From the IMG/VR virus record IMGVR_UViG_3300025085_003231: a stretch of 63,156 bases of DNA. One strand, 5' to 3'. Under the pieces are notes generated by a model. It saw only the letters and a program-made list of their open reading frames with translations, was not told where the DNA came from and ran no database searches. This DNA comes from an uncultured virus (IMG/VR IMGVR_UViG_3300025085_003231). Lineage: Duplodnaviria; Heunggongvirae; Uroviricota; Caudoviricetes. Both the position numbers and the translations under genes were made by a program. Of the stretch, positions 3,193 to 62,925 are shown piece after piece. Positions within the stretch are counted from its first letter, which is position 1, and each line of letters begins with the position of its first letter.

Positions 3193-3277
3193 AATATTCT
3201 TTGTGCGGTCTTGTTATATGAATCTTTTGGATGATTGGGTCCGAATCGTATCCCAAACATCCGATAATCTAAAGTTC

Positions 3278-3742
3278 TTAACTCCAGAGTTGAGCCAGAT
3301 TTTCGTAACAGGAATTTATGGTCTCAGGATTTGGATTAGCAACTTCGGGCATCATGGATTCCAAGGATTCAATCGTTCGGAAAATTTGCCTCCATTTGAG
3401 TTCTCGCATCTTGTCATAAATGCCTCGTTCTTCGGCACGGTCTTCGTATCCTTTTTGAACCAAATACTTTTCCAAGGCCAAGACATCCAACCTCCATCGG
3501 ATTCCTCCTTTTCGGTCTTTGGCTTGAGCGTGTCGGAAACAAGGTCGGTTACGCAAAATACCCACTACTTCACGAGAGGTATAACGGCGAGGTTTGTAAT
3601 CTACCATGTAAGATGAAATTTGTGTGGAATAGCCATAGCCTTCGTGTTCTAACAAATAATCTACTATGTCTAAAACCAGTGTTTCCGTAAGTGGAAGGGG
3701 TCGTCTTTTAGAACGAGGTTTTTCTTCGGGAACTTCACTCAT
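3278..3742 (-). CDS. Putative winged-HTH DNA-binding protein
   Basis: IVDYL..STQISSYM..TSREVVGILR..WRL pattern; ATG 3742 coupled to upstream micro-ORF. Confidence 0.55.
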   Translation of the reverse strand: MSEVPEEKPRSKRRPLPLTETLVLDIVDYLLEHEGYGYSTQISSYMVDYKPRRYTSREVVGILRNRPCFRHAQAKDRKGGIRWRLDVLALEKYLVQKGYEDRAEERGIYDKMRELKWRQIFRTIESLESMMPEVANPNPETINSCYENLAQLWS

Positions 3743-3857
3743 CCTTTTTGCCCCCGTGTTGGTTGAAATCCTTTCTATTTCCACACTCAGGGCATTTAAG
3801 GGGACGATATGTGCGTGTCATAAAATGACCGCAATTCGCACATGACCATCCATCCAA
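3735..3857 (-). CDS. Rubredoxin-like Zn-ribbon micro-protein (40 aa)
   Basis: Hand-translated MDGWSCANCGHFMTRTYRPLKCPECGNRKDF; TTG start after GGAGTGA. Confidence 0.65.
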   Translation of the reverse strand: MDGWSCANCGHFMTRTYRPLKCPECGNRKDFNQHGGKKDE

Positions 3858-3860
3858 AGG

Positions 3861-4289
3861 TCACTCCTCCGAATCTTTGCCGTAAATAACAGGGACATCC
3901 ATAGGTTCATCAGGCAAATCAAGAGCATTACGAACCATGTTGGCTTTGTCTTTATCATATTCTTCACGGGCTTCTTCTAAAGTTAGACCTCGTGCTTTAC
4001 AATCCATGATGTATTGTTTCTTGTTTTGTTCAAAACTCATGAGTGCTATAATGTTAGCGATTGAATCATCAACTTGTTTGTCCTCTTCGGAGGCAGGTCG
4101 TGAAAACAACTCATCAACTTCCCTTCGGAGAGCAGCGTGGGTAGCCCCGCCACCCACAGGAACGAATTCTTCTATATCATCGTCTCGGACTGCACCAATA
4201 GCACCCTCCGAAATTCTTTCAATCATTTCTTCGGCTTGGCTACGGGTAACTGGAAAACCTGCTCTTTCCCAATATCTGACTTCGGACAT
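3861..4289 (-). CDS. Hypothetical protein
   Basis: 142-aa ORF with promoter at 4310. Confidence 0.75.
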   Translation of the reverse strand: MSEVRYWERAGFPVTRSQAEEMIERISEGAIGAVRDDDIEEFVPVGGGATHAALRREVDELFSRPASEEDKQVDDSIANIIALMSFEQNKKQYIMDCKARGLTLEEAREEYDKDKANMVRNALDLPDEPMDVPVIYGKDSEE

Positions 4290-4305
4290 AATCTATATTA
4301 CTGTC

Positions 4306-4485
4306 TTATCCTATTTGAATGTTCTGTTTAACTGAATGCACTTGCCGCCTTAAATATATGGCTTTAGCAATTTCCTTAGCATCCGTATTGAGTTTGCCTG
4401 AAATGTAAAATGAGTAGCCTTGGGACTGACGAATTTCAATAATGTGCCTGAAATCATAGACCCATGAGGGAATATCAACGCTCAT
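4306..4485 (-). CDS. Small hypothetical protein
   Basis: MSVDIPSW..., overlaps stop of upstream gene. Confidence 0.55.
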   Translation of the reverse strand: MSVDIPSWVYDFRHIIEIRQSQGYSFYISGKLNTDAKEIAKAIYLRRQVHSVKQNIQIG

Positions 4486-4849
4486 ACAATATCCACCCAC
4501 CTGCTAAGTTTTGATTTTTAGCAGAAAATAGTCTACCTGTGCGATACCCGTTTTTAGAACGGACTGAATCGGAGATGAGTCGTCCCCGACATTCCAATCC
4601 CCATGGTGGGGCAGAAAACTCCGTTCTTATCCGAAAAGTTTCGGATTCAGTAAAATCAACGGGAGTGACTTGCATAGTTCCTGTGGAGGCATCCCATTTT
4701 AATTCTGCAATAACCAAATGCAATCCTGTGCCTGATGATGAAATACGATACCAGACTCGTAGTGGATAACGAGCCGCTAATTCATTGATGGCGGTTTCAA
4801 CTATTGGGTCGGTAATGGAAACATCATCCCAATCAAATGTCAGCCACAT
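4475..4849 (-). CDS. Minimal AEP (primase-polymerase)-like protein
   Basis: hhDhD motif (LTFDWD) and SSSGTGLH motif like AEP motifs I/II. Confidence 0.5.
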   Translation of the reverse strand: MWLTFDWDDVSITDPIVETAINELAARYPLRVWYRISSSGTGLHLVIAELKWDASTGTMQVTPVDFTESETFRIRTEFSAPPWGLECRGRLISDSVRSKNGYRTGRLFSAKNQNLAGGWILYER

Positions 4850-4891
4850 AGAAAATCTATGCTGCTACTTTCTATTTAAGCATTCACAATC

Positions 4892-5508: not shown

Positions 5509-5652
5509 CTAATCGTTTTCGCTATTTAAGTTTTGCGAAACAAACCTGGTAATAACTGGATTACGGATGGCAATAAACCACCAAACAAAATAGAGGCTTG
5601 CTAAGGATAATGAGGTCAGCCAAGCCAAAATAAACCAAATAATCAGTTCCAA
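5509..5652 (-). CDS. Small membrane protein (47 aa)
   Basis: Hand-translated MELIIWFILAWLTSLSLASLYFVWWFIAIR; TTG start after GGAGTG, overlapping ArsA stop. Confidence 0.55.
   Translation of the reverse strand: MELIIWFILAWLTSLSLASLYFVWWFIAIRNPVITRFVSQNLNSEND
5521..5529 (-). promoter_or_regulatory. TATA box, TAGC class (representative)
   Basis: TTAAATAGC 20 nt before ATG; same class at 6851, 10186, 10706, 16951, 19929, 23832, 25796, 35512, 49059. Confidence 0.85.
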
Positions 5653-6830: not shown

Positions 6831-6865
6831 ACTTTGGCTTTATCATTGTTGCTATTTGAATCTTC

Positions 6866-7279: not shown

Positions 7280-7324
7280 GTATAATTTCATTTATTTACT
7301 ATTTAAGTTTTTAGCCTTCCTGCA

Positions 7325-10165: not shown

Positions 10166-10202
10166 ACCTTATTTTAGGGTATGCTGCTATTTCAATCTTC
10201 GC

Positions 10203-10685: not shown

Positions 10686-10732
10686 GGTAATTATTGTGTT
10701 GGCTTGCTATTTCAATCTTAGGGACTCATCCC

Positions 10733-12073: not shown

Positions 12074-12111
12074 ACACTTAAATTAGTGTCGCTGTTATTT
12101 AAGTTTTAACA

Positions 12112-16930: not shown

Positions 16931-16978
16931 GGCGTTTTATTGTGGCTCTCGCTATTTAAGTTTGGCGTTGTTGATAAA

Positions 16979-17227: not shown

Positions 17228-17265
17228 AATGATGGGGGCTCTCTTTACCTATTTAAATATTATGG

Positions 17266-19117: not shown

Positions 19118-19218
19118 AGTAATCGTTTTCCTATTATAAAGTTGTTCATAGGGAACCCACTGTTCCCTCTAACTGTATATTCGGTTTTCTTCCTATTTAA
19201 GATTAACTATGTGCTGCA

Positions 19219-19908: not shown

Positions 19909-19954
19909 GGACTTATGGGGTGTTTCTTGCTATTTGAACTTGCGCCCAATTTAG

Positions 19955-20104: not shown

Positions 20105-20136
20105 AATACTTGGTAGTAATGCTACCTATTTAACAT

Positions 20137-23811: not shown

Positions 23812-23843
23812 AGCCATTTATTGATGTTCTTGCTATTTAAGTT

Positions 23844-24491: not shown

Positions 24492-24530
24492 AATGCTTCT
24501 GGTAGCGTTCTCCTATATGAATCTTTGTCT

Positions 24531-25775: not shown

Positions 25776-25821
25776 GTTGTTAATGTGGCGTTATTGCTAC
25801 TTAAATTTGTCGTTTAACAAA

Positions 25822-27870: not shown

Positions 27871-27971
27871 CTTTGTCACCTTTTGGGAATGTTGCTTGGT
27901 TGGTTTCTCATATATAAGATTGTCGCCACGACCTTGCGTTGTTTCGTGCAAGGTGGTGTAGTTGCGCTATT

Positions 27972-37474: not shown

Positions 37475-37843
37475 CTATTTAAGATAGAGGTTGCTTCCAG
37501 AGGTAATGATTTCGGGATAGGTTTTTCCGTCTAAATTACTGATTCCATCAGTCCAATATGGGACTTTTTTGGGATTGAAACTAATGGCTTTGGTGGGGTC
37601 TATGGTGATGGTTGAAGGGTATTCAAACCAGACAGAATCTGCGTCTACCCACGCACAAACTGTTTTGTTTCGTCCCGCGCAAATGGCCTCAGCAATTCGG
37701 TTTTGATTGTGCAACCGACAGCCAACCATCAGAATTTGAACTCGGGCTGGGTCGTGATATGTAACTCGGCCATCAGGATGTCTGACTTGAAATTTCTTGT
37801 GGTTTTGTCCCAGTCCTAAATGGAATCTTACTCGGTAATTCAT
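37475..37843 (-). CDS. Phage-type hypothetical protein
   Basis: RFHLG..KTVCAWV..FNP pattern. Confidence 0.7.
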   Translation of the reverse strand: MNYRVRFHLGLGQNHKKFQVRHPDGRVTYHDPARVQILMVGCRLHNQNRIAEAICAGRNKTVCAWVDADSVWFEYPSTITIDPTKAISFNPKKVPYWTDGISNLDGKTYPEIITSGSNLYLK

Positions 37844-38249: not shown

Positions 38250-38275
38250 AGCACGAATCACTCGTGCTACCTATA

Positions 38276-40438
38276 TTAAGTTTTACAGGTTGCTTCATCA
38301 AATGCTGCAAGCATTTTCTCAGGAAGTTTGCTACGAACGGATTGCAACAACGAATCTGAATTCATATCCCAATCACGATTGCGAATCCGAATTAAAGGAA
38401 TGCCCTTTTCCCGACAGATTTTATCTTTAGATTTGTCATTGCCTTTTCGGACTCTAAATGCTTCACGACCTCCGAACTTAGCCGATGGGATATAATGCTG
38501 TTCACCATCCATCTCTACTGCAAAACGGATACCCTTTTGATTGATATAAATGTCTAATTCCAGCATATTGCCTTTGCGATTGCGAAGCCACGGATAACGG
38601 CCATTGTGCTTCAATTCTGGGAAGTATTGTTGTAGCATTTCAACGGCTCTTTTTTCAGCCAAAGATTTGTTTTCATTAGTGACTCCGATAGCGATGTCTT
38701 GTGAGGAGATTTTTTCAGTGTCATTAGAATTGACCCATGTGCTTTCAATCCAATGAGTAATCCAGAGTGAGCCGTCAGATTTTTCCTGAATGTATTTAGC
38801 GTCTTTTCCAGAACGATTTTTAATTGGTTGTGTTCTCCAATGTCCTGAACGAAGGTGCATGGCTTTTTTCTCACCAGTGGATTTAGAACTTTTTGATGAA
38901 ACATACTTGACACCATTTTTTCCAAGAATACGGTATGGCAATTTATTTCGTTTTTTGTCTCCTTTTTTATTTGTTTCTATGCCTGAAACTTTGCGAATCT
39001 CGGGTTCTGAAATGGGTGCTTGAATGTAAATACAAAGATTCAAGCAAGTGCTAACAACTTGATTCCAAAATTTCTCAAGTTCTTTGAGTTCGGTTTTAGT
39101 AATCTTATTTTCACGACCAAAGAGGCCACACATCTGGAACAATAATTGTTGTGCCAGCATGGGTGGCAAAGTAAGTTTTTGGTCATCCTGTGTAAATCTG
39201 GAATCTTTTAAATCTCCAAAAAATTCTTTTGTAAGTTGATTCTGTTGTTCAATAACATCGTCTAATGTTAATTCATCTTTTTGAAATAGTTGGAAAATCT
39301 TCTTGATGTGTTGTTTGACTAATTTCGGAGTGATATTTCCTGAATCATCCACGATGCTGTTTTTGGGAACGACCAATGTTTTGACAGATTCTGTATCTCC
39401 ATAAACATTGAACCAAATTGATTCCTCGGATTCAAACATAAAAATGGTAGACATAAACTCAATTTGAGGTCTATCCTCCCAACTATCCCAATCATGGTGT
39501 AAAAAAGAATCGTCGCAGTAATCAAAGTCAAAAACTATACCATTCTTGTAAGGTCCAATTTTTAATAATTCTGCGGGATAGGTGTAGTTGGTTTTTTCTA
39601 ATTTTTGAACCATGTTCGGTCGGATGATAAATCGCTTGTTTTTTTCAGCAAGACGAGCCGTTTTGTTTTTAGTTTCTGTTCCTGGGCTGTGGTATCTGTG
39701 GTGCATTAAAAGCAAGTCTAAGTTGCGTTTTAGTTCCAGGCTGTGGAACATTTGAATTGTGTTCCACGAGCCTTGTTGTTCTTCATCTTCATTTTCAGCC
39801 CACCAATCTACATCTTGGCTGCGATAATAGAGGACACGCTTCAGGCTCCAGTCATCTCCCACTTTTTTAATCAATCCGATTGATGCGTCTGTATTAAAAA
39901 TTGTAAGTTCGTTCCAACCCACTTCTTCGTAAAACTCATCAGAGCCAATCATGCTGCTAAGGTAATCCTTCCATTCTTCTATAAATTGAACTGCCTCAAC
40001 CACAGAACCATTGATTTCAACAGGAATTGATTCTAATGCTTTATCGGGCAGCGGTGTATTTCGGGGTGATGAATAGGCTCTTTGGTTTTGGTATGATAAT
40101 TCTTCACTACTGTAATCAGTGAAATAGTTGGAGCCTTCTTCAAAAACCTCATCAAAATGTTTTAATGGAATCAAAACTCTGGCATCTTGGTTAGGGGCAG
40201 TAAAGTAGTAATCTCCAGAACTAATCCAATCATCAAGTTGAGTTCTATGGATGGTTGGTTGAATCACAAATCTGAAAATGTCTGATGCTTGAATGCCGCC
40301 TGGTATTGAGTGTAGGGCATCGTAGATAATCCTATTTTTACCACCTTTAGGGTGTTGTTTTAGATATTCATCATAATAGTGCTTCATCAAATCGTGGGGT
40401 GATACATCTGCTCTCCCTTTATTACGGAGCCTTTTCAT
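38276..40438 (-). CDS. Large protein with C-terminal Vsr/DUF559-like PD-(D/E)XK nuclease
   Basis: LELDIY..AVEMDGEQH..D..K..C...GIPLIRI; HLRSGHWR motif upstream. Confidence 0.8.
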   Translation of the reverse strand: MKRLRNKGRADVSPHDLMKHYYDEYLKQHPKGGKNRIIYDALHSIPGGIQASDIFRFVIQPTIHRTQLDDWISSGDYYFTAPNQDARVLIPLKHFDEVFEEGSNYFTDYSSEELSYQNQRAYSSPRNTPLPDKALESIPVEINGSVVEAVQFIEEWKDYLSSMIGSDEFYEEVGWNELTIFNTDASIGLIKKVGDDWSLKRVLYYRSQDVDWWAENEDEEQQGSWNTIQMFHSLELKRNLDLLLMHHRYHSPGTETKNKTARLAEKNKRFIIRPNMVQKLEKTNYTYPAELLKIGPYKNGIVFDFDYCDDSFLHHDWDSWEDRPQIEFMSTIFMFESEESIWFNVYGDTESVKTLVVPKNSIVDDSGNITPKLVKQHIKKIFQLFQKDELTLDDVIEQQNQLTKEFFGDLKDSRFTQDDQKLTLPPMLAQQLLFQMCGLFGRENKITKTELKELEKFWNQVVSTCLNLCIYIQAPISEPEIRKVSGIETNKKGDKKRNKLPYRILGKNGVKYVSSKSSKSTGEKKAMHLRSGHWRTQPIKNRSGKDAKYIQEKSDGSLWITHWIESTWVNSNDTEKISSQDIAIGVTNENKSLAEKRAVEMLQQYFPELKHNGRYPWLRNRKGNMLELDIYINQKGIRFAVEMDGEQHYIPSAKFGGREAFRVRKGNDKSKDKICREKGIPLIRIRNRDWDMNSDSLLQSVRSKLPEKMLAAFDEATCKT

Positions 40439-40677: not shown

Positions 40678-40703
40678 GAGAGTTATTCTGACCTCTCACC
40701 TAT

Positions 40704-41390
40704 TTAACTATTTTCAAGGACATTATCAACGAATGCTCGGCTAACCTTTTCATATCTTTGGTAACAATTGCTGCACAAACCCATGTTGAATCGGACTCCT
40801 GTGCTGGTGGTTCCCAATGGGTGGTATGTGGGAAGTAATTTGATAATATCTGGCGGGTAATTGGGCTCTAAGGTTTGAACTATTTTTCTGAGTTCTTGTT
40901 GGTATTCTTCTTCAAACGCTGCTTTGCCTTCATAATCGTTCCATTCTAAATTTAATTCTTTTCTGCGAGCCCACAATCTTTTTGACACAGGTGCCAGAAG
41001 TTCGTTGTATTCTTGGATGGCTTTTTTGGCGTTGTTATACGATAATCCACAACTGAGGCAAGGGTCTTTGAAAAAGAAAGAATCTCCTGGATATACCACA
41101 GTAAATAGATTCATTATTTCTTTCCGCATCTCTTCCTTTTGCTTTTCCATCCGCTGTGGTATCCAGGATGGACTCCTGTTTGGGCCTCTTTTATCTTCCC
41201 AATCTTTATCAGTCATTTTTCTTTGCCAATAGGCATTGGAGTCAAACCACATATTTTGGTAGTCTCCAGGTTGCTTCAAGATATTTATGACAGATTTTGA
41301 AGCATCGGGGAGATTGTTGAATTTAGTGTCGGCATAGTTAATGGGCGGATACCAACTTTTATAATACAGTAGCCAACGGTATTTTCCCAT
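40704..41390 (-). CDS. Hypothetical protein with CxxC pairs
   Basis: CLSC, CSNC; start by promoter spacing. Confidence 0.7.
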   Translation of the reverse strand: MGKYRWLLYYKSWYPPINYADTKFNNLPDASKSVINILKQPGDYQNMWFDSNAYWQRKMTDKDWEDKRGPNRSPSWIPQRMEKQKEEMRKEIMNLFTVVYPGDSFFFKDPCLSCGLSYNNAKKAIQEYNELLAPVSKRLWARRKELNLEWNDYEGKAAFEEEYQQELRKIVQTLEPNYPPDIIKLLPTYHPLGTTSTGVRFNMGLCSNCYQRYEKVSRAFVDNVLENS

Positions 41391-41411
41391 AATGAGTAAT
41401 TGGCGGTTCAT

Positions 41412-41528
41412 CTATATTAAGTTATCTTCTAACATCCAGACAACTTCCTTGACGGCTAAATCAAAAAGTAGAAAGCAAATCCAACAAGGTTGCGATTCAC
41501 AAGTGCAAACCTGACGATATGAAAGCAT
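41412..41528 (-). CDS. Cys-rich micro-protein (38 aa)
   Basis: MLSYRQVCTCESQPCWICF...; second copy at 42144-42182 differs mainly at synonymous sites. Confidence 0.6.
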   Translation of the reverse strand: MLSYRQVCTCESQPCWICFLLFDLAVKEVVWMLEDNLI

Positions 41529-42105: not shown

Positions 42106-42183
42106 ACTCTTTATTGCTTGCGCTTGTTATATGAAGTTAATGTTTGGGATTCGCAGGTGCAGACCTGACGATAAACAAGCATA

Positions 42184-42680: not shown

Positions 42681-42716
42681 ATTATTTAGAGAGTGACACT
42701 ACCTATATGAATGTTC

Positions 42717-43220: not shown

Positions 43221-43328
43221 AACTATGAATCAGCAACTTAATATTTAAATCTAATCCTTGAGCAATGAATTGCTGGGGGGGTTGGGGAGGTCATTAGGGA
43301 CAAGCAAATAATGGGGACTAAATTAGCC

Positions 43329-43725: not shown

Positions 43726-43857
43726 TCAACTATTTGAACTTGTTTCATCTAAACGAAAACTCATATTGCAACTTTGACAAACCAATGTTTCCTTATCTAC
43801 CCTACATTGACGACGACAAGGCCCCCCTATGGACACATATTTTACATTTTTTGCCAT
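43726..43857 (-). CDS. Zn-finger micro-protein (43 aa)
   Basis: MAKKCKICVH..C..C..CQSC; promoter at canonical spacing. Confidence 0.6.
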   Translation of the reverse strand: MAKNVKYVSIGGPCRRQCRVDKETLVCQSCNMSFRLDETSSNS

Positions 43858-43874: not shown

Positions 43875-44423
43875 TCAACTATTTGAATCTGGTGTGAAAT
43901 AATTGGACGCTATCCAATCATCCAAATCCCTAAATTCAGAACTGCTGTTTTCTTCAAAAAGAATGGTGGAGACTATTTCATCTCGGTAATTGTCCAGAGC
44001 CATATTTTTGTATTTGTCTAAAAACCAAGCGATTCTTTCTTCTGTGAAAGTTTTGTTATCAGTAACAAATGTGTTGGTTTTAACATCTATCTTGATGTGC
44101 CAGTTACAGCAAGGGCAAGTATATAATTTCTCTTTGAGGGTCTTGTTATCTTGTTTATACAAATAATAGGGGCAGTGAATACATTTAATGATAATTTTTT
44201 GATTGCTCTTTTCAACTATGGCTCCTTCTGGATAATTGCTATCATAGTGCAGACAACGAAGACAAAGCCAGTTCTTAAAATAAGTTTCTCTGGTAATGGA
44301 ATATTCCTCCGTATTTTTCGGGCTGGAGAAAATCCCTTCTTGCTCCATAGCAAATGGTGTGGATTGGGCAGTGCTTTCTGGTTCTCCCTCATATTGACAT
44401 TGAACACACAATTTGAAATTCAT
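43875..44423 (-). CDS. Multi-CxxC Zn-binding protein
   Basis: Four CxxC pairs. Confidence 0.7.
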   Translation of the reverse strand: MNFKLCVQCQYEGEPESTAQSTPFAMEQEGIFSSPKNTEEYSITRETYFKNWLCLRCLHYDSNYPEGAIVEKSNQKIIIKCIHCPYYLYKQDNKTLKEKLYTCPCCNWHIKIDVKTNTFVTDNKTFTEERIAWFLDKYKNMALDNYRDEIVSTILFEENSSSEFRDLDDWIASNYFTPDSNS

Positions 44424-45470: not shown

Positions 45471-45538
45471 ATGCTTCCATAGCGAGCACACCTATTTAAC
45501 ATTTAGGACTATTCTTCTTCGCAACAAGGCGCAGGGCA

Positions 45539-46513: not shown

Positions 46514-46539
46514 AACTTCTATTATGGAGGTTACCTATA

Positions 46540-47439
46540 TTAAGTTTTAAGTGCGTTAGTGATATATTGGTGATAATTTATAATCCATTGTGTTCGGGGT
46601 GGCATTACTACTTCTTCGGAGTTTCCAAAAGACTCATAGGTATCCATTACCCATTTCTGGAATGCAGTCATACTGGCTGATTCCATCAGGTTCCAGTTCA
46701 TAGATTTGTTGTTTCCTTGACCCCATATTTGGGTGATAATCTTCTTCTGTTCCGTAGGGTCTTTCCCAGCAGTAGAGGCACGAGTTAATAGGAACTTACG
46801 ATAGGCAGTTTCAATAATGATTTTTACATCCATAATGCGGGTGTATGCGTCTTTATCTGCGTTCCAGAAATATTGATTGTCTGCTTCGTGAGGTGTTATT
46901 TTATAGGCTTGCATCATTACCTTATCTGGGAGACCATTTGCCCAAATCGCAGATTCACCTGATGATGAGACGAGTTGAAAAAGGTGGCTGGCTTGGTCTA
47001 AAATTTGGATTGATGCTAATCTTCTCTGCCCTTCTTTAAAATAGTAGACTGTGAGGCCATCATAGTAGGGAGAGTTTTGTGCAGGGCAAATAATCCAACG
47101 ATTGTCTAATATGTAGATGTTTTTGAAACGGTCTGCATAAGATTTCCATTTATTGTTCCTGTCTCTTTGACCGTAGGTAGCGAGGAATTTATCATATGAA
47201 ATCAGTTCACCTGAATCGTTGCGGTATCCGTAATCTTCAAATTTAGCATTAAGATGCTTATTGATATTATACTTTGACCTTTGCCTTCCGAGGACGGCTC
47301 TAATAATTTGTCCTTTTCGGTAAGTATCTGCGGGTAAGTTAAGGATGGAGAATTTTGTCCATGCTTTTGGACTCCGAGGATTTGCTTTAGATTTATTTAT
47401 TTTATTCATGGCTGAGAGATACTGTGACCACGAATACAT
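46540..47439 (-). CDS. Hypothetical protein with C-terminal IINY tag
   Basis: 299-aa ORF. Confidence 0.75.
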   Translation of the reverse strand: MYSWSQYLSAMNKINKSKANPRSPKAWTKFSILNLPADTYRKGQIIRAVLGRQRSKYNINKHLNAKFEDYGYRNDSGELISYDKFLATYGQRDRNNKWKSYADRFKNIYILDNRWIICPAQNSPYYDGLTVYYFKEGQRRLASIQILDQASHLFQLVSSSGESAIWANGLPDKVMMQAYKITPHEADNQYFWNADKDAYTRIMDVKIIIETAYRKFLLTRASTAGKDPTEQKKIITQIWGQGNNKSMNWNLMESASMTAFQKWVMDTYESFGNSEEVVMPPRTQWIINYHQYITNALKT

Positions 47440-47502
47440 GGTATTTATTGATGGGTTTTCCTATTTAAATTTTGTCAAAAAAACACTACCCTGAAACAGT
47501 AA

Positions 47503-49038: not shown

Positions 49039-49063
49039 GGTTATTATTGGGTGGTGCTGCTAC

Positions 49064-49531
49064 TTAAGTTTCACTAAGTCGTTGTTTAAGGGGGAAGCAG
49101 TTAGGTAACAAATGTAACTTATCCTGTTCCCGAACGATAAATCCTGGGACGATTCTTCTGATTTTTTGAGATAATCTTCTGGGTGTCATTCTCCAATCAA
49201 AACCTTGAGTTAATTCTCGGGCTACTTCGGCTGGAGTGAGTGCGCCTTTGGCTCTTAAGACTTGTAAGCAATCATACAAAAACAAGTATTTTTTAATTCT
49301 GACTTTACGAGTGCAATCGTCATTACAGAATGATTTGTTTGCTTTGCTGCCTCTTCGGAGAGCAAATTCGTCTCCGCACCAATCACAATTGTGGTAAGCA
49401 ATAATTTGATTTTTATGGAACAGATAATCTTGGGACACAGGTATTTCTTGTAAAATGTGACAACGCTCGCTGCAAAATTGTTCGTAAAGTGAGTAGCGAT
49501 ATTTAGAATCACAACGGCGACAGGATTCCAT
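49064..49531 (-). CDS. Zn-finger + wHTH regulator (paralog family)
   Basis: CRRC..FCSERC..CDWCGDEF..FC. Confidence 0.75.
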   Translation of the reverse strand: MESCRRCDSKYRYSLYEQFCSERCHILQEIPVSQDYLFHKNQIIAYHNCDWCGDEFALRRGSKANKSFCNDDCTRKVRIKKYLFLYDCLQVLRAKGALTPAEVARELTQGFDWRMTPRRLSQKIRRIVPGFIVREQDKLHLLPNCFPLKQRLSET

Positions 49532-50656: not shown

Positions 50657-50665
50657 ATTATCACT

Positions 50666-51954: not shown

Positions 51955-52647
51955 TTACCTATTTAAGAAAGTTAGACCGTCTCGCAACCAGTTGAGTGGT
52001 TGATTTGGAACAAGATAAAGTTGTGCATCATCATGATTTTTATAGAGATTAAAGGGGAGGTTTTCATCCCATTCCCATATTTTCATGTGTTCTTTTGCGT
52101 CAGATGGATTAGCATATGCTCTGTAATCTACTCCGACAAGAATATCGTCTACTAAAACTTCGGTTCTGATTATTGGGATAAGGACTCCTTGCGGGAAATT
52201 TTCCATCTCTTCTGAAGTGGGTGGATTGCCACCATAATCAAAATCGGATGGGTGAAATGGAAGAAATGGTGCGGTTTGTCCTTGTATGTCTTCTTCTAAT
52301 GTATCCCACGAATTAAACATATGTTCTCTCCGTGGTTTCCCATTATTGACATAATACATAGGGTATGTGGGGTGAAGGTTGTTCCTTGTAATGTAGGCTC
52401 TGTATTTGTTGTAATACTTTGGGTCAAGATACATCATGGCTTCAATCCTGGCATTACAAGAATAATCGGTTTTGACCCTCTCTCCCGTAGAGGACGGGGT
52501 GTGGGCTGGCTTAACGCAAACCATATCCCGAGTAAAGCAAAGTGTTTCTGGGTCCCAATCTGTGTCCATCAATTCGGTAAAAAAATGGGAGTCGCCCCAC
52601 TTCTCTGCCATTTCATTATAGTCGGGTTTTGAACCATTGGTTTTCAT
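51955..52647 (-). CDS. Hypothetical protein
   Basis: ~230-aa ORF. Confidence 0.7.
   Translation of the reverse strand: MKTNGSKPDYNEMAEKWGDSHFFTELMDTDWDPETLCFTRDMVCVKPAHTPSSTGERVKTDYSCNARIEAMMYLDPKYYNKYRAYITRNNLHPTYPMYYVNNGKPRREHMFNSWDTLEEDIQGQTAPFLPFHPSDFDYGGNPPTSEEMENFPQGVLIPIIRTEVLVDDILVGVDYRAYANPSDAKEHMKIWEWDENLPFNLYKNHDDAQLYLVPNQPLNWLRDGLTFLNR
51958..51966 (-). promoter_or_regulatory. TATA box, TAGG class (representative)
   Basis: TTAAATAGG 20 nt before DP1 ATG; same class at 17248, 20125, 28939, 30302, 30700, 32568, 34930, 37474, 45491, 46534, 53881, 61892, 62890. Confidence 0.85.
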
Positions 52648-53260: not shown

Positions 53261-53298
53261 ACACTTTATTTAGTGCTGCAACTACTTAAGTTTGTCGT

Positions 53299-53844
53299 TC
53301 ACAGAACGCTGTTTAGTTCATCCATGAGTGCATCAGCCGCTGCGTCCGCATCTTCAGGTGACTTTGTCCCTGTGATAACACACTTGCCTGACGAAAACAC
53401 GAGGCATACTGCTGATGGAGCATCAATTCGGTAAATCAAACCTGGGAATTGCTCAGGCTCATATTCTGTCTTTTCAAACGGAAGTGATAGCACAAGATTG
53501 TTAAGGTCTACGGGTTGTTCGTAATCTGTGGTGATAACCAGATTGGAAATTTCAATCATTTCAGTATCAAATGGATTTGCATCGGTCAAGAACCCTTCGG
53601 TTGTTAGACGCTCATGTAGTTGTCGGAAGGCAGATTCAACATCTGATTCTGACCTTGCTCCTGTGGCAACAACTTTTCCGCTGCGGAATAGTAGCAAACA
53701 AACTTTGGGTGTTTCAACACGATAAACCATTCCTGGGAATTGTTCTTGTTCGTATTCTACTTGTAGTGTGTCTGCTACATCATTGATGTCAAGTGATGTG
53801 CAATATCTTGTGCTGGCTACCATATTTACAATTTCGTTAGGCAT
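53299..53844 (-). CDS. tbp: TATA-box binding protein
   Basis: Two repeats: NMVAS..YEQEQFPGMVYR..LFRSGKVVATGA and NLV..YEPEQFPGLIYR..VFSSGKCVITG. Confidence 0.97.
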   Translation of the reverse strand: MPNEIVNMVASTRYCTSLDINDVADTLQVEYEQEQFPGMVYRVETPKVCLLLFRSGKVVATGARSESDVESAFRQLHERLTTEGFLTDANPFDTEMIEISNLVITTDYEQPVDLNNLVLSLPFEKTEYEPEQFPGLIYRIDAPSAVCLVFSSGKCVITGTKSPEDADAAADALMDELNSVL

Positions 53845-53885
53845 ATTTGTTCGCTCCTTAAATACTAAGGTGCGTTATTACCTAT

Positions 53886-54125
53886 TTAAGCATTGAGTGG
53901 GTTGGGCTTTCCACAACTGGTGCAACACGCCAAAATATCGGCGTAAATGATGCCGCATGAACATCGTAATTGCTGGTTAATTCTAAGCACCATGTCTTGA
54001 AGTTCCACATCTAAGTGGTGTTGAGGAATCTCTTGTTTTTTCCAAGATTTGTCTCTTTTTTTCTGCCGTTCTTTTTGTGAGACAAAGTCTCGGTTCTTGT
54101 TCTTATTTTTACCCATATGGTTCAC
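53886..54125 (-). CDS. Basic Zn-ribbon protein
   Basis: CSCG..CTSCG. Confidence 0.65.
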   Translation of the reverse strand: MNHMGKNKNKNRDFVSQKERQKKRDKSWKKQEIPQHHLDVELQDMVLRINQQLRCSCGIIYADILACCTSCGKPNPLNA

Positions 54126-54469: not shown

Positions 54470-54496
54470 TTGTATTTTTGACTATTTGAATATGAG

Positions 54497-54607: not shown

Positions 54608-55174
54608 TCACGACCTATTTAAGAATGAGCGTGACATAATCGTATTATAATTGATGATATAGTTTTCTTCCGAGACAACGGGGTATCCAACTATCTCTGG
54701 GTCAAGGAGAATATCATTGGTTGTGATAACGGTGGGCAATAGTTGTAATTCTGGAAATGGGAGCATAGCATTATGGTCTACAAAATTTCTCATATGTGTG
54801 GCTTTGTCAATCCTTCCGTGGCGGTCTACCTTTCTTTTTTCCGATTTTGTTAGTCGGTAATTATCTCTGGTGATGGGGCGGTCTTGAGGCCATAACTGAA
54901 GTTCTTGTGTGTCATTATTTCGGTGAATTGCTACCCAAGTCCCAACTGTTTTTCCTTGTGGGTGCCAAACAATCAAAAATGCGTCCGTAGCAAGTTTTCC
55001 TGAAGAGTCATTACTAAGGTATATTCTTTGAGTCCTGTTCCCACGAGTCGTAGGGGTTGGAGGGAAGCGACCCAATTTTGAAAGGTAATCGTCTCTGGTT
55101 CCTAATTTTAACAACCGAGCAATTTCATTCAGAGTAGTTGCTGGGAGGCTGTCTATTCGGTGTTCTATCCACAT
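54608..55174 (-). CDS. Hypothetical protein with C-terminal IINY tag
   Basis: 188-aa ORF after GAGGTGA SD. Confidence 0.75.
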   Translation of the reverse strand: MWIEHRIDSLPATTLNEIARLLKLGTRDDYLSKLGRFPPTPTTRGNRTQRIYLSNDSSGKLATDAFLIVWHPQGKTVGTWVAIHRNNDTQELQLWPQDRPITRDNYRLTKSEKRKVDRHGRIDKATHMRNFVDHNAMLPFPELQLLPTVITTNDILLDPEIVGYPVVSEENYIINYNTIMSRSFLNRS

Positions 55175-56450: not shown

Positions 56451-56769
56451 AGTAATCTCTTAGTGCGCTTGTTATTTAAAATTTTTGAATGTGATGGGGT
56501 CTACTACACAAATATAGGGATGTAAAACCTCGGCAATACATCTTTCTTTTTTGGGATGTCGGGATTCACGCAAAGCATGAAGCAAACATTTACCCGTGGT
56601 TAATATTCAAATATTATTCAGCCCATGGTATCTGCAAATAACCAATTCGCAGCATGAACTTTAAGCGTCGTTTTCAGAACAATATTGTGCCAATCAATAC
56701 TGCCCTGTCCACTTAATCGCTTGTGTAGTTTCCCTCCACTATTTGGTGGTGGTGCTACCTATTTAAGAT

Positions 56770-57129: not shown

Positions 57130-57164
57130 AATGAGAAATTCTATTGCTTGCTATATCAATCTTC

Positions 57165-58911: not shown

Positions 58912-58942
58912 ATCTACCACTTCTGGCATTACCTATTTAATA

Positions 58943-59110: not shown

Positions 59111-59143
59111 ACCCATATATTATGGGGATAACCTATTTAAGAA

Positions 59144-59908: not shown

Positions 59909-59930
59909 AAACTCACCTGTGATTCTTCAC

Positions 59931-60074
59931 CTATTTAAGATTTGTCCAATCTATGTGTGGGAACATACATTGAGCGCACATTCTCAAATCATTGACACTT
60001 CCCATTTCATCGGAATATCCTTCTTTGTCACAAACGACACAATAAACCAATCTGGGATTCTCATTCCTCGGCAT
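59931..60074 (-). CDS. Zn-finger micro-protein (47 aa)
   Basis: CVVC..CAQC. Confidence 0.6.
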   Translation of the reverse strand: MPRNENPRLVYCVVCDKEGYSDEMGSVNDLRMCAQCMFPHIDWTNLK

Positions 60075-61016: not shown

Positions 61017-61276
61017 TCCTCCTCTTTGCAAGAAGGGTCAGCGCATTCTGGGTCAGCGCATCCTTCATCGTGGACATGAGGCTCAGTGGTGTTAATCTGT
61101 GCATCCATACCAAACAATTCTGGGTGGCTGTCAATGATGTTGTTGAGGGCTGCCCTCATATCAATCAGCGCATCAATAGCCGTAAGCATATCTGTAATAA
61201 TTAGATTTGCTTTTACTTCGGGCGGCAATGCGTGGTATTGTTCTGCTGTCAATTGGGTCGGTTGTGTTGGGTTCAT
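61013..61276 (-). CDS. Small protein with HVHDEGCADPECADPSC tail
   Basis: Coupled ORF. Confidence 0.75.
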   Translation of the reverse strand: MNPTQPTQLTAEQYHALPPEVKANLIITDMLTAIDALIDMRAALNNIIDSHPELFGMDAQINTTEPHVHDEGCADPECADPSCKEEE

Positions 61277-61641
61277 TCTTGTTCCTCCTGTGCTTTTCTA
61301 AAATCCTTCTGGAATTTACCCAGATTCATCTCGGTGTGGATTTCAACACCGTATCCTTCGTCATCACCGATAGAAATCAGTGCGTTGGAATCGTCAATAG
61401 AGAGCAAGAAGTCAAAAATCTCGTCTGGAAGCAATCCTTCCTCAGAATTTTTCTGTGCCTCAATAAGCACATATCCTGCGTCTGTGTAAAATACGCCCTT
61501 GAAAGGCTCTTTTGTGGTTGATGAGAAAAGTCCGTTATCCTCATCTTCAACCTCATATCCACGCTCAACAAAGAAAGCAGAAAATTGCTCCCATGTCAAA
61601 GGGTTGTCTTTGGTAAATGCCAATGCTACTACTTCGCTCAT
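61273..61641 (-). CDS. Acidic hypothetical protein
   Basis: Start by promoter spacing. Confidence 0.7.
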   Translation of the reverse strand: MSEVVALAFTKDNPLTWEQFSAFFVERGYEVEDEDNGLFSSTTKEPFKGVFYTDAGYVLIEAQKNSEEGLLPDEIFDFLLSIDDSNALISIGDDEGYGVEIHTEMNLGKFQKDFRKAQEEQE

Positions 61642-61667
61642 AATATTCATACTCCTGTGTTACCTAT

Positions 61668-61871
61668 TTAAGATTCTGTGGTGTCGGGGTTTGTATCTCC
61701 GATTAGTGTTTTAATTTCTGTGGCTGGAATGCGAATGGTGCTTCTTTTACCTGCACCAATGCGGAGTGCCTTAATCACACCACGCTGAACATAGTTCCTA
61801 ACGGTGGATTCACTTACTCTCAAAAGTTTTGCAACCTCCTTGACAGTATAGAATGTATCTGTTTCGTCCAT
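61668..61871 (-). CDS. Excisionase-family HTH (HTH_17) DNA-binding protein
   Basis: YTVKEVAKLLRVSESTVRNYVQRG.I.A.RIG..IRIP. Confidence 0.9.
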   Translation of the reverse strand: MDETDTFYTVKEVAKLLRVSESTVRNYVQRGVIKALRIGAGKRSTIRIPATEIKTLIGDTNPDTTES

Positions 61872-61905
61872 AATTTATAGGTCTTGTGCTACCTATATAA
61901 GTTTA

Positions 61906-61960
61906 AGCAAATTAACGCAACTAACACAATTAAGCACACATAGCACAATTAGCACAATTG
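61906..61960. repeat. Degenerate tandem repeat (~AGCACAATT)
   Basis: agcaaatt/aacgcaact/aacacaatt/aagcacacat/agcacaatt/agcacaatt. Confidence 0.7.
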
Positions 61961-61963
61961 GGC

Positions 61964-62869
61964 TTATGGCTGCACAATATAGTATTGGTTGAGAGAATTC
62001 TTGCTCACTAATCCCTCACGCCACAATAAATCAAGCACTTGCTTGACTTTCCTTCTGCCTGTGGCATTATTGTAGCCTACGGTGAGTTTGCCTTGTGCGT
62101 TCTTGAGCGTAACCACACCAGTAATTGTGAGTGGACCATCTGCTAAGGACTCATAGACCTTGCGATGAAAATCTGTTTCAAGCACCCTTCCCAAATTTTG
62201 GGTGTGAATGTATCTGTTGTTCAACTTCTTGACCAAACGCTTGGATTGCAAGTAAAGCAGTATCTCATCCCTCATTTTACGATACTTGCCTGAGCGACGA
62301 GTGATATTGAGGATGTCTGATTTAGTTAGCCCTTGAGAGTTGTTTTTCAGAGCCGTAGTAATCTCTGTCATGAACTTGGTGTATGTGCGTCTTTGTCGTG
62401 TCCCAAATTTTGGTTCATCAAATTCCACGCTTGCTTGTGCGAGAGTGTAGTCTTGTGCTATTTGTGGTTTAGCCTCAATCATTTCTTTAGAAGTGAATGG
62501 TGTGCTTTCTGCTTCTTCAATAGACATTCCTGCTTCCAGCCTTGTTTTTATGATGGCTATTTCTGCTAATTTTTCTTGGATGAGGTTGGCTTCTGCTTCC
62601 TTACGAGCGAGACTTTCTGCCTCTTTAGCACGAGCAATAGCCTCAACCTCCATTTCTGCCTCTTGCACAAGAACCTCAATTTCTCCATTACGGATAGCAG
62701 AAATCCTTTCAATCTCCTGCTTAACCACTTGTTCATCAAGCCCAAATTCCTGTGCTAATTTTGACACCCAATGTGCCTGAAATGCCTCATTTGTCAAAAC
62801 AACCTGTTGTTGTGCTGGGGAGAGATGGCTGAACTCAGATTTTATTGCGGTGCTTGGCTCCACTGACAT
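61964..62869 (-). CDS. Coiled-coil protein with putative tandem wHTH C-terminus
   Basis: EA-rich coil; two HTH-like segments. Confidence 0.75.
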   Translation of the reverse strand: MSVEPSTAIKSEFSHLSPAQQQVVLTNEAFQAHWVSKLAQEFGLDEQVVKQEIERISAIRNGEIEVLVQEAEMEVEAIARAKEAESLARKEAEANLIQEKLAEIAIIKTRLEAGMSIEEAESTPFTSKEMIEAKPQIAQDYTLAQASVEFDEPKFGTRQRRTYTKFMTEITTALKNNSQGLTKSDILNITRRSGKYRKMRDEILLYLQSKRLVKKLNNRYIHTQNLGRVLETDFHRKVYESLADGPLTITGVVTLKNAQGKLTVGYNNATGRRKVKQVLDLLWREGLVSKNSLNQYYIVQP

Positions 62870-62925
62870 AGTGTAAATGTATGCTGCTACCTATATGAAA
62901 CTACTTCTGTCTGGGCGGTCAAATT

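What the first reader, a model, noticed from the sequence alone, without database searches (positions are those of the whole stretch)
3213..62899. Two-class promoter code at fixed spacing separates replication genes from structural-like genes
Seen: more than 40 minus-strand TATA elements. Most end exactly 20 nt before an ATG (e.g. 5521/5500, 6851/6830, 10186/10165, 16951/16930, 30302/30281, 37474/37453, 46534/46513, 51958/51937, 62890/62869), implying leaderless mRNAs. The bases 3' of the box define two classes. TAGG(TA) precedes PCNA, ERCC4, the exonuclease operon, NDT operon, Fpg, UvdE, DP1, TBP and the HTH. TAGC/TAAC/TAGT precedes the Get3-like ATPase, the beta-rich and tail-anchored proteins and nearly all AE-motif and IINY-tag proteins. 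Established: the canonical archaeal BRE lies upstream of TATA, so conservation downstream is atypical. Inference: an early/late switch, possibly read by the element's own TBP, itself under a TAGG promoter.
Basis: partly seen in the sequence, partly recalled or inferred. Interest (0 to 1): 0.85.

Follow-up and report, generated by a model that had tools for sequence, protein, structure and literature searches.

The report
Promoter classes in a marine archaeal virus
A large marine archaeal virus starts most of its operons from a TATA box placed exactly 21 bases before the start codon, and the few bases just after the box come in distinct versions that sort replication and repair genes from membrane and putative particle genes.

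Summary
TTAAATAG is the commonest minus-strand 8-mer (26 against 0 on plus). For 37 of 105 degenerate boxes the next ATG lies 20-22 nt downstream, against 2.7 expected. Genes behind a box lack a Shine-Dalgarno: 3 of 42, against 20 of 52 other genes. The mRNAs are therefore probably leaderless.

The bases 3' of the box are discrete sub-motifs, not one fuzzy consensus (MI 0.47 bit between positions 8 and 9, no permutation reached it). GGT[AG] boxes carry informational genes in 12 of 23 operons, other boxes in 1 of 23 (p=0.0006).

Three 150-166 kb relatives share the geometry and show three types. G against non-G is kept between orthologues in four of six genome pairs. The function link is strong in one relative (13/37 against 3/71) and not significant in the other two. 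TAGC and TAGT types interchange.

All three relatives also encode a TFB and PolD. An early/late switch, and its reading by viral TBP/TFB, remain untested. The host is unknown and no transcript 5' ends were obtained. This is a new variant of virus promoter classes; the nearest precedent is the rudivirus GTC element just after TATA.

The parts
62887..62898 (-). G-class box, 21 nt to ATG 62869 (301 aa, unknown)
61889..61900 (-). G-class box, 21 nt to ATG 61871 (HTH_17 regulator)
61660..61671 (-). G-class box, 22 nt to ATG 61641 (three-gene operon, unknown)
59927..59938 (-). G-class box, 22 nt to ATG 59908
59129..59140 (-). G-class box, 22 nt to ATG 59110
58929..58940 (-). G-class box, 21 nt to ATG 58911 (operon of small proteins)
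56755..56766 (-). G-class box with no ORF behind it (319-nt gap); possible non-coding transcript
54611..54622 (-). G-class box with no ORF at the usual spacing (138-nt gap)
53878..53889 (-). G-class box, 37-nt leader with Shine-Dalgarno to ATG 53844 (TBP)
53299..53844 (-). virus-encoded TATA-binding protein gene (181 aa)
   Evidence: PF00352, E 1.3e-54
51955..51966 (-). G-class box, 21 nt to ATG 51937 (PolD small subunit DP1, then three Zn/HNH-like paralogues)
47457..47468 (-). G-class box (TAGGAA), 21 nt to ATG 47439 (299 aa with a C-terminal IINY tag; an exception to the tag rule)
46531..46542 (-). G-class box, 21 nt to ATG 46513 (UvdE)
45488..45499 (-). G-class box, 21 nt to ATG 45470
42699..42710 (-). 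G-class box, 22 nt to ATG 42680 (winged HTH)
40696..40707 (-). G-class box, 22 nt to ATG 40677 (80 aa, then the 720-aa HNH endonuclease protein)
38267..38278 (-). G-class box, 21 nt to ATG 38249 (98-aa ORF)
37471..37482 (-). G-class box (TAGGAA), 21 nt to ATG 37453 (Fpg)
35729..35740 (-). G-class box, 21 nt to ATG 35711
34927..34938 (-). G-class box, 22 nt to ATG 34908 (DUF6899 and NDT operon)
32565..32576 (-). G-class box, 20 nt to ATG 32548 (5'-3' exonuclease operon)
30697..30708 (-). G-class box, 21 nt to ATG 30679
30299..30310 (-). G-class box (TAGGAG), 21 nt to ATG 30281 (ERCC4)
29592..29603 (-). G-class box, 23 nt to ATG 29572 (210 aa)
28936..28947 (-). G-class box, 22 nt to ATG 28917 (PCNA)
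24509..24520 (-). G-class box, 21 nt to ATG 24491 (HNH endonuclease)
20122..20133 (-). G-class box, 21 nt to ATG 20104 (49 aa)
19189..19200 (-). G-class box with a ~75-nt leader to ATG 19117 (secreted TSP3/QG-repeat protein); the leader holds a family-conserved hairpin element at 19173-19144
17245..17256 (-). G-class box, 21 nt to ATG 17227
4307..4318 (-). G-class box (TAGGAT), 21 nt to ATG 4289
57147..57158 (-). C-class box, 21 nt to ATG 57129
56468..56479 (-). C-class box (TAACAAG), 21 nt to ATG 56450 (two proteins with IINY tags)
49056..49067 (-). C-class box, 21 nt to ATG 49038 (474 aa)
42123..42134 (-). C-class box (TAACAAG), 21 nt to ATG 42105 (IINY tag)
36372..36383 (-). C-class box, 20 nt to ATG 36355
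35509..35520 (-). C-class box (CTAAATAG variant), 21 nt to ATG 35491
25793..25804 (-). C-class box, 21 nt to ATG 25775
23829..23840 (-). C-class box, 21 nt to ATG 23811 (495 aa, 558 aa, PAP2)
19926..19937 (-). C-class box, 21 nt to ATG 19908 (acidic 229 aa)
16948..16959 (-). C-class box, 21 nt to ATG 16930 (seven-gene operon of tail-anchored and IINY-tagged proteins)
12091..12102 (-). C-class box (TAACAGC), 21 nt to ATG 12073
10703..10714 (-). C-class box, 21 nt to ATG 10685 (160-aa protein, 55-65% identical across the family)
10183..10194 (-). C-class box, 21 nt to ATG 10165 (946 aa)
6848..6859 (-). C-class box, 21 nt to ATG 6830 (ArsA/Get3-like ATPase)
5518..5529 (-). C-class box, 21 nt to ATG 5500
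3210..3221 (-). C-class box (TAACAAG), 21 nt to ATG 3192
54478..54489 (-). T-class box (TAGTCA), 21 nt to an in-frame GTG at 54460
53278..53289 (-). T-class box (TAGTTG), 21 nt to ATG 53260 (membrane protein with WYL_2 domain)
43875..43886 (-). T-class box, 21 nt to ATG 43857
43726..43737 (-). T-class box, 23 nt to ATG 43706 (membrane protein)
7295..7306 (-). T-class box (TAGTAA), 19 nt to ATG 7279
41408..41419 (-). unclassed box (TAGATG), 21 nt to ATG 41390
4868..4879 (-). unclassed box (TAGAAA), 22 nt to ATG 4849
43237..43248 (-). unclassed box (TATTAA), 20 nt to ATG 43220
27906..27917 (-). unclassed box (TATGAG), 39-nt leader to ATG 27870 (class II RNR); RNR has a 34-40-nt leader in all four genomes

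Best explanation
These are archaeal-type core promoters of a roughly 150-170 kb marine archaeal virus. Each consists of a weak BRE (an A three bases before the box), an 8-bp TATA box about 30 to 23 bases before the start codon, and a T-A initiator whose A is the A of the ATG. The first gene of each operon is therefore translated from a leaderless mRNA. Internal genes use a Shine-Dalgarno.

The 4-7 bp directly 3' of the box come in discrete versions. In this window they are GGT[AG] or GGA (G class), against GCA[AG], ACAAG or GCG (C) and GT[TC] (T). I read these versions as marks of differently regulated gene sets. G covers the replication, repair and transcription-factor regulon, including the virus's own TBP. 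Non-G covers mostly membrane, tagged and putative particle genes.

The likeliest reader is the initiation-factor pair itself. The element lies where TFB touches DNA on the downstream side of the TBP-TATA complex, and it co-varies with a base on the upstream side. The virus family encodes its own TBP and TFB next to the host's set. That would allow a switch of host RNA polymerase between promoter classes, much as phages switch sigma factors.

Shown: the geometry, the discreteness of the sub-motifs, the conservation of class between orthologues, the function link in this window and in one relative, and the presence of TBP and TFB genes. Inferred: leaderless starts, temporal order, and which protein reads the element.
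For: Geometry: 37 of 105 boxes have the next ATG at 20-22 nt, against 2.67 expected. No other conserved element lies from -70 to -9 of the box, and T is conserved at -1 of the ATG. A is found at position -4 of my box start in 39 of 43 promoters. A Shine-Dalgarno is present in 3/42 box genes against 20/52 others, with the same direction in the three relatives.

Discreteness: in the window MI between positions 8 and 9 is 0.47 bit. In the three relatives the pairs 7-8 and 8-9 give 0.28-1.04 bit. None of 2000 permutations reached any of these values. Position -2 co-varies with positions 7 or 8 at 0.27-0.37 bit in the window, G004 and G005, but not in G003.

Conservation: G against non-G concordance of first-gene orthologues is 15/18 (p=0.003), 32/41 (p=0.012), 28/37 (p=0.02) and 45/49 (p<0.0001) in four of six genome pairs, at 41-53% mean protein identity. 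PCNA and ERCC4 are G in all four genomes. WYL_2, RNR and SOD are never G.

Function: informational operons are 12/23 among G and 1/23 among non-G in the window (p=0.0006), and 13/37 against 3/71 in G003. Membrane proteins are about threefold rarer in G operons in all four genomes (odds ratios 0.27-0.38). The F[EA]A[PE] motif occurs in 0 of 195 G-governed genes against 30 of 478 other box-governed genes across the four genomes. IINY tags are 5 C against 1 G in the window.

Readers: TBP is in the window. TFB, DP2 and TBP are in G003, G004 and G005. No RNA polymerase family was found among the 216 G005 proteins scanned.
Against: No transcript 5' ends or time courses exist; the RNA runs are contigs and show no starts. 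The function link is weak in the two complete relatives: G005 7/18 against 13/70 (p=0.11) and G004 6/20 against 13/71 (p=0.35). Concordance for WIN|G004 (10/16) and WIN|G005 (7/9) is not significant.

There are at least three sequence types plus a TTAAATAC type, but only one viral TFB. C and T types interchange between orthologues: 10/25 and 6/22 are the same. TFB and TBP genes themselves change class between genomes, ArsA is C here but G in G004 and G005, and DP1 is T in G005. A G box drives a secreted repeat protein (19200). 'Structural' is unproven. The host and its promoters are unknown.
Confidence: 0.5

Rival explanations
1. The class-specific bases are operators for small virus-encoded DNA-binding proteins (HTH, winged-HTH or zinc-finger repressors or activators). 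These would sit between TATA and the start site and block or aid RNA polymerase recruitment. The same host TBP/TFB would be used at all promoters.
For: This is the known paradigm in archaeal viruses. SIRV2 early genes share a consensus regulatory sequence around a common TATA/BRE core and are thought to be repressed through it (PMC11065993, passages read). F55 and SvtR act the same way (PMC5569661, passages read). The window encodes at least two HTH proteins and many small Zn-ribbon proteins, mostly under G boxes. More than two sequence types exist. Gene-specific inverted repeats are enriched between box and ATG: in G005, 28% of spacers have arms of 5 bp or more, against 7% of shuffled spacers.
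Against: The element is short and not palindromic. It always abuts the box in the same register and co-varies with a base on the other side of the box, which suits a factor that straddles TBP better than a separate dimeric regulator. The spacer palindromes differ from promoter to promoter and are not class-specific.
Confidence: 0.3
2. There is no regulatory code. The sub-motifs reflect promoter strength variants or shared descent of promoters copied together with neighbouring genes, and all are used alike.
For: Classes are interleaved along the genome (runs test p=0.24) and only weakly positional (Mann-Whitney p=0.046). The function link is not significant in G004 and G005. C and T types swap freely between orthologues.
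Against: Intergenic DNA at 41-53% protein identity should be saturated with changes, yet G against non-G is kept in four of six genome pairs. The same three or four sub-motifs recur in all genomes at one register. Function, membrane content and two peptide motifs all track the class.
Confidence: 0.15
3. The box is not a TATA box but lies at or near the transcript 5' end, so that the mRNAs carry a ~29-nt leader whose first bases define the class at the RNA level.
For: The fixed distance to the ATG would also fit a fixed-length leader. Some spacers can form hairpins.
Against: No AT-rich or other conserved element lies 20-35 nt upstream of the box. The leaders would lack a Shine-Dalgarno, while internal genes have one. 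The distance and the T-A at the ATG fit the standard archaeal TATA-to-start geometry; the TATA position of about -26 to -30 is stated in PMC5817253 (passage read).
Confidence: 0.04

Closest known systems
GTC element of rudiviruses SIRV1 and SIRV2
   Same: [quoted passage not shown] The T type of the relatives reads TAGTCG, that is GTC in the same place.
   Different: In the rudiviruses a single motif is reported in the majority of promoters. Here there are several mutually exclusive versions that partition the genes. Only one box in this window has GTC (54489). The hosts and virus families are unrelated, and no reader is known in either case.
Early-gene consensus regulatory sequence of SIRV2 and other Sulfolobales viruses (anti-defence gene promoters)
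   Same: A conserved sequence around a common TATA/BRE core marks one temporal class of genes within an archaeal virus genome (PMC11065993, passages read).
   Different: That consensus is long (motif widths were set to 30-100 bp) and includes inverted repeats for a repressor. Here the class mark is 4-7 bp abutting the box, and the whole genome is partitioned, not only a terminal early set.
Downstream TFIIB recognition element (BREd) of eukaryotic RNA polymerase II promoters
   Same: The position is the same, immediately 3' of the TATA box, where the first cyclin repeat of TFIIB/TFB meets DNA. This rests on my recall of the literature, not on a call.
   Different: No archaeal BREd turned up in my one search. 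The consensus as I recall it does not match GGTAGC or GCAAG. Recognition by TFB is untested here.
Phage sigma-factor cascades and multiple TBP/TFB regulons of haloarchaea
   Same: Alternative initiation factors direct one RNA polymerase to promoter classes. In Halobacterium the BRE/TATA core alone conferred heat induction (PMC2396416, passages read).
   Different: In that haloarchaeal case, mutating the sequence downstream of TATA had no effect. A virus-encoded TBP plus TFB pair acting as a switch has not been shown anywhere.
Virus-encoded TBP or TFB genes in other archaeal viruses
   Same: TBP genes are annotated in Halorubrum virus HRTV-9 and Haloarcula virus HJTV-2 (31-37% identity). TFB genes are annotated in Sulfolobales viruses YNP1 and YNP2, Halorubrum tailed virus records and Acidianus rod-shaped viruses 2 and 3 (22-33% identity).
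   Different: No record appears in the hit lists of both searches. The family studied here has both genes together with PolD, and a genome-wide promoter partition.

Membership tests
Archaeal core promoter driving leaderless mRNA | AT-rich 8-bp TATA box centred about 26 bp before the transcription start | tested here: inconclusive
   The box lies 29 to 22 nt (or 30 to 23 nt) before the A of the ATG in 35 of 54 curated promoters, and within 1 nt of that in 46 of 54. The start site itself is not mapped.
Archaeal core promoter driving leaderless mRNA | Purine-rich BRE just upstream of TATA, with A at -3 | tested here: met
   A is present in 39 of 43 promoters at position -4 of my box start, which is -3 if the TATA begins one base earlier as in the relatives' TTTAAGTA. 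The rule for a strong BRE is taken from PMC5817253 (passage read).
Archaeal core promoter driving leaderless mRNA | No Shine-Dalgarno before the first gene; Shine-Dalgarno before internal genes | tested here: met
   3/42 against 20/52 in the window (p=0.0005). The relatives give 5/69 against 43/142, 11/75 against 55/113 and 8/91 against 28/88.
Archaeal core promoter driving leaderless mRNA | Transcript 5' end at the start codon | not testable with these tools
   Only assembled contigs of RNA runs were available, and they gave no starts.
Temporal (early/late) viral promoter classes | Distinct sequence classes of promoters within one genome | tested here: met
   Position-pair MI is 0.47 bit (positions 8-9) in the window and 0.28-1.04 bit (pairs 7-8 and 8-9) in the relatives, with no permutation reaching these values. 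Recurrent 5-mers after the box are listed.
Temporal (early/late) viral promoter classes | Classes map to functional modules | tested here: inconclusive
   Strong in the window (12/23 against 1/23) and in G003 (13/37 against 3/71). Not significant in G005 (7/18 against 13/70) or G004 (6/20 against 13/71).
Temporal (early/late) viral promoter classes | Classes expressed at different times | not testable with these tools
   No time-resolved or 5'-end data.
BREd-like element read by TFB/TFIIB | Located immediately 3' of the TATA box | tested here: met
   The class-defining bases are positions 8-12 counted from the box start, with no gap.
BREd-like element read by TFB/TFIIB | Bound sequence-specifically by TFB | not testable with these tools
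   Indirect only. The element co-varies with position -2 on the other flank of the box, and viral TFB is present in the relatives.
Rudivirus GTC promoter element | GTC directly downstream of TATA in the majority of promoters | tested here: not met
   In the window 1 of 54 boxes has GTC. In the relatives TAGTC is one of three types, for example 11 of 83 hits in G005.
SIRV2-type early-gene regulatory consensus | Long consensus spanning the core promoter, with repressor inverted repeats | tested here: not met
   No conservation beyond about 8 bp upstream and about 7 bp downstream of the box. The spacer inverted repeats are gene-specific.

The most novel reading that the evidence does not exclude
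A family of large marine archaeal viruses carries its own TBP and TFB. It uses them to redirect host RNA polymerase from one promoter class to another by reading a short element directly downstream of the TATA box. This would be a natural archaeal counterpart of the eukaryotic BREd and of phage sigma-factor cascades, and the first case of virus-encoded general transcription factors setting a temporal programme in archaea.
Probability: 0.3. Interest if true: 0.85.

Novelty: new variant of a known kind. Interest (0 to 1): 0.62.

Why it matters
Archaeal viruses are held to depend on host TBP, TFB and RNA polymerase (PMC5569661, passages read). How large ones order their gene expression is largely unknown. 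Here the promoters are unusually clean: one box, one spacing, and a few mutually exclusive flanks. They partition 50 to 100 operons per genome in viruses that also carry a TBP and a TFB.

That makes a concrete question testable with a handful of recombinant proteins and short DNA templates: can general initiation factors, viral or host, tell promoters apart by the bases just after TATA? A yes would add a new core-promoter element to archaeal transcription and a new mode of viral takeover. The fixed geometry also gives a practical rule for calling gene starts and operons in these abundant, unannotated marine viral contigs.

Tried and rejected
1. Own-genome search: the window's assembly is not held. 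The nearest record, G001, is 96-98% identical to window 23.5-63.1 kb and too close for conservation tests.

3. Expression: one search for sequencing runs found seawater and marine RNA and DNA runs holding 5-26% of the sampled words. Laid on 34000-53999, they gave 90-99% identical contigs only. There were no starts, strands or levels, and one RNA-library contig runs across the box at 46542. This says nothing on start sites or timing.

4. Host. The first genome-contig scan with a PolD large-subunit alignment found nothing. A TBP alignment found Thermoplasmata, Poseidoniales and others at only 41-48% identity. The protein database holds Thorarchaeota- and Bathyarchaeota-labelled TBPs at 57-59%. 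In 340 kb of one Poseidoniales genome, about 5 of about 240 genes have a similar box 21 nt before the ATG, followed by GG, GG, GA, CG or CA. That is too few to say which class is host-like. The Atlas search for DP1 gave only viral and Thermoplasmatota or Methanobacteriota neighbours.

5. Structural nature of non-G genes. Pfam and PHROGs on the window and Pfam on 216 of 224 G005 proteins (eight genes spanning locus joins were skipped) found no capsid, portal or terminase family. The AlphaFold model of the conserved 160-aa protein, from 31 sequences, had mean pLDDT 37.7 and was not searched further.

6. Further family members through TBP: two shorter contigs (GC 36-37%) carry few such boxes and mostly other types.

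7. Rfam and tRNA scans of the window found nothing.

8. A hand-counted test for G005 (8/18 against 9/70) used an inconsistent gene category. It is superseded by the automated count.

9. A one-base class rule does not carry over between distant genomes for C against T.

10. A script with slow simulations timed out and was rerun with fewer simulations.

Full report
WHAT THE WINDOW IS. All long ORFs lie on the minus strand, and GC is about 42%. Pfam finds TBP, the small subunit of PolD (DP1), PCNA, ERCC4, Fpg, UvdE, a 5'-3' exonuclease, a nucleoside deoxyribosyltransferase, class II RNR, two HTH proteins and an ArsA/Get3-like ATPase. About 80% of the 105 called proteins have no family.

The window's assembly is not held. 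The nearest record (G001, 40.6 kb) is 96-98% identical to 23.5-63.1 kb. DP1 led to three diverged relatives of 150, 160 and 166 kb, at 65-69% DP1 identity. Two of them have inverted terminal repeats, and all have two arms transcribed towards each other.

The 166-kb relative also encodes TFB, the PolD large subunit, an MCM-like protein, a ligase, a helicase, a resolvase and methylases. It has a central 55 kb without any Pfam hit and no RNA polymerase. TFB, DP2 and TBP are present in all three relatives.

RNA and DNA contigs 90-99% identical to the window occur in seawater and marine runs. I found no description of such viruses in five literature searches.

THE OBSERVATION. The nine cited sites are as described. 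TTAAATAG is the commonest minus-strand 8-mer, 26 against 0. For a degenerate box, 37 of 105 minus-strand hits have the next ATG 20-22 nt on, 26 of them at exactly 21. The plus strand has 1 of 65, and simulated sequence averages 2.67. Forty-three promoters pass an automatic rule. My curated list has 54, with 35 at exactly 21 nt and 46 at 20-22 nt.

Nothing else is conserved from 70 to 9 nt upstream of the box. There is an A three or four bases before it and a T just before the ATG. Genes behind a box lack a Shine-Dalgarno (3/42), while other genes often have one (20/52). The same holds in the three relatives. This is the standard archaeal picture of leaderless first genes and Shine-Dalgarno-led internal genes. 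The transcript starts themselves are inferred, not seen.

ARE THERE CLASSES? Of the 43 automatic promoters, 24 have G after the 8-mer, 15 have C and 4 have A or T. G is followed by T (18) or A (6). C is followed by A (13) or G (2). Mutual information between positions 8 and 9 is 0.47 bit in the window. In the relatives the pairs 7-8 and 8-9 give 0.28-1.04 bit. No permutation out of 2000 reached these values. Position -2, on the other side of the box, co-varies with positions 7 or 8 in three of the four genomes.

The relatives have the box at the same offset and three clear types: TATCAGAA, TAGTCGT or TAGTTGA, and TA[GA]GTG. A rarer TTAAATAC type sits near the termini. The window's G class equals the third type. 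Its few TAGTT boxes equal the second. Its TAGCA and TAACA boxes probably stand for the first.

ARE THE CLASSES CONSERVED? I compared reciprocal-best orthologues that are both first genes behind a box. G against non-G agrees in:
- 15/18 for WIN|G003 (p=0.003)
- 10/16 for WIN|G004 (not significant)
- 7/9 for WIN|G005 (not significant)
- 32/41 for G003|G004 (p=0.012)
- 28/37 for G003|G005 (p=0.02)
- 45/49 for G004|G005 (p<0.0001)

Mean protein identity in these sets is 41-53%. C against T is kept only between the two closest genomes (25/36). Elsewhere it is not (10/25, 6/22).

DO THE CLASSES TRACK FUNCTION? I used one automatic definition: operons holding at least one gene with a replication, repair, nucleotide-metabolism or transcription annotation, carried to the relatives by reciprocal best hits. 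Results:
- Window: G 12/23, non-G 1/23 (p=0.0006)
- G003: 13/37 against 3/71 (p<0.0001)
- G005: 7/18 against 13/70 (p=0.11)
- G004: 6/20 against 13/71 (p=0.35)

PCNA and ERCC4 are G in all four genomes. RNR (always with a 34-40-nt leader), the WYL_2 membrane protein and SOD are never G. DP1, DP2, TFB, TBP, Fpg, NDT and ArsA change class between genomes.

Membrane proteins are about threefold rarer in G operons in every genome, though each test alone is weak. The F[EA]A[PE] peptide motif occurs in 30 genes under non-G boxes and in none of 195 under G boxes over the four genomes. The C-terminal IINY tag is 5 C against 1 G in the window. Orthologues are not independent, so these pooled counts overstate the evidence.

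Classes are interleaved along the window (runs test p=0.24; position test p=0.046). The function link is therefore not just a matter of two genome halves. 'Structural' remains a guess, because no capsid or packaging family was detected and the one structure model failed.

MECHANISM. The class element lies about 22 to 15 nt before the start, abuts the box in one register, is short and is not palindromic. From my recall of the TBP-TFB-DNA structures and of the eukaryotic BREd, this is where TFB's first cyclin repeat meets DNA. The covariation with the upstream flank suits a factor that straddles TBP. The virus family brings its own TBP and TFB but no polymerase. An infected cell would therefore hold two factor sets.

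Against it: there are more types than factor sets, C and T swap between orthologues, and the factor genes themselves change class. The main rival is the known archaeal-virus mode, in which small DNA-binding proteins act between TATA and the start site (PMC11065993 and PMC5569661, passages read). The gene-specific inverted repeats enriched in the spacers may belong to that layer. I put about 0.3 on factor switching, 0.3 on dedicated regulators and 0.15 on no regulatory meaning. I put 0.5 on the general statement that the classes are differently regulated promoter sets, with the factor pair as the likeliest reader.

COMPARISON WITH WHAT IS KNOWN. The nearest precedent is the GTC triplet just downstream of TATA in most SIRV1 and SIRV2 promoters, proposed as a virus-specific element (PMC5569661, passage read). 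One of the family's types carries GTC at that place, but here several exclusive versions split the genome. The SIRV2 early-gene consensus is long and repressor-linked (PMC11065993). In a haloarchaeal heat-shock promoter, the BRE/TATA core decided factor-directed regulation and the downstream sequence did not (PMC2396416, passages read). TBP or TFB genes are annotated singly in other archaeal viruses.

I file this as a new variant of a known kind: virus promoter classes with a TATA-proximal downstream mark, in an apparently undescribed family of PolD-, TBP- and TFB-encoding marine archaeal viruses.

LIMITS. There are no 5' ends and no timing data. The host is unknown. Gene starts and operons come from my own simple caller. 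Annotation covers a minority of genes. The four genomes form three lineages, so the replication is modest.

Noticed in passing
L020:14782-18348 (G005), L019:1914-2900 (G005); window 50666-51937: The virus family encodes both PolD subunits (DP2 of 1189 aa in the relatives, DP1 in the window) and a full TFB next to TBP. It also has an MCM-like protein, a ligase, a helicase and PCNA. Genomes are 150-166 kb and linear, with inverted terminal repeats and two arms transcribed towards each other. I found no description of such viruses in five literature searches.
   Followed up: partly
window 56450-55179, 55174-54608, 47439-46540, 42105-41530, 14778-14485, 14488-14057: Six proteins end in a shared C-terminal tag, [FIL][IL]NY followed by about 10-15 residues. 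Five are in C-class operons. The tag is nearly absent from the three relatives (0, 2 and 0 genes).
   Followed up: partly
window and G003-G005, whole: The peptide motif F[EA]A[PE] occurs in 30 genes governed by non-G boxes and in none of 195 governed by G boxes. It may be a processing site of particle proteins.
   Followed up: partly
window 19173-19144 (minus strand): A 30-nt element with a 6-bp hairpin stem lies in the leader of the secreted TSP3/QG-repeat protein gene. It is 92-97% identical in all three relatives while the flanks differ.
   Followed up: partly
window 56766-56451 and 54622-54470: Two perfect G-class boxes have no ORF behind them (gaps of 319 and 138 nt). These may be non-coding transcripts. 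Rfam finds nothing, and the folds were made without a shuffle control.
   Followed up: partly
window 38276-40674: The 720-aa protein with a C-terminal HNH/homing-endonuclease region lies in about 2.4 kb that G001 lacks; G001 has about 1.5 kb of unaligned sequence there instead. This looks like a mobile insertion.
   Followed up: no
window 17417-19117: A 566-aa secreted protein has bacterial TSP3 repeats and a long run of Q-G dipeptides. This run explains the CAAGG-type 8-mers among the commonest words.
   Followed up: no
window 49064-50656: Three tandem paralogues (189, 188 and 155 aa) rich in cysteine pairs hit a PHROG named HNH endonuclease. They follow DP1 in the same operon.
   Followed up: no
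window, many intergenic gaps of 21-26 nt: The stop codon of the upstream gene often lies inside the box itself, as the TAA or TAG of TTAAATAG. Promoter and gene end therefore overlap.
   Followed up: no
G005 promoters, e.g. 90303, 118701, 137986, 155780: Perfect 6-8 bp inverted repeats fill the spacer between box and ATG, and they differ from promoter to promoter. In G005, 28% of spacers have arms of 5 bp or more, against 7% of shuffled spacers. The excess is weaker in the window (12% against 4%).
   Followed up: partly
window 27870 and orthologues in G003-G005: The RNR gene has a 34-40-nt leader and a non-G box in all four genomes, unlike nearly all other first genes.
   Followed up: no
L124-L140 (Poseidoniales genome G006): A few host-type genes carry TTGAATAG, TTATATAG or TGAAATAG exactly 21 nt before the ATG, the same geometry as the virus. 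This applies to only about 5 of about 240 genes.
   Followed up: partly
window 10203-10685: The 160-aa C-class protein is among the best-conserved proteins of the family. It is 55-65% identical in about 100 clusters, many from ocean surveys, on contigs of up to 164 kb. It may be a major particle protein, but the structure model was unusable.
   Followed up: partly
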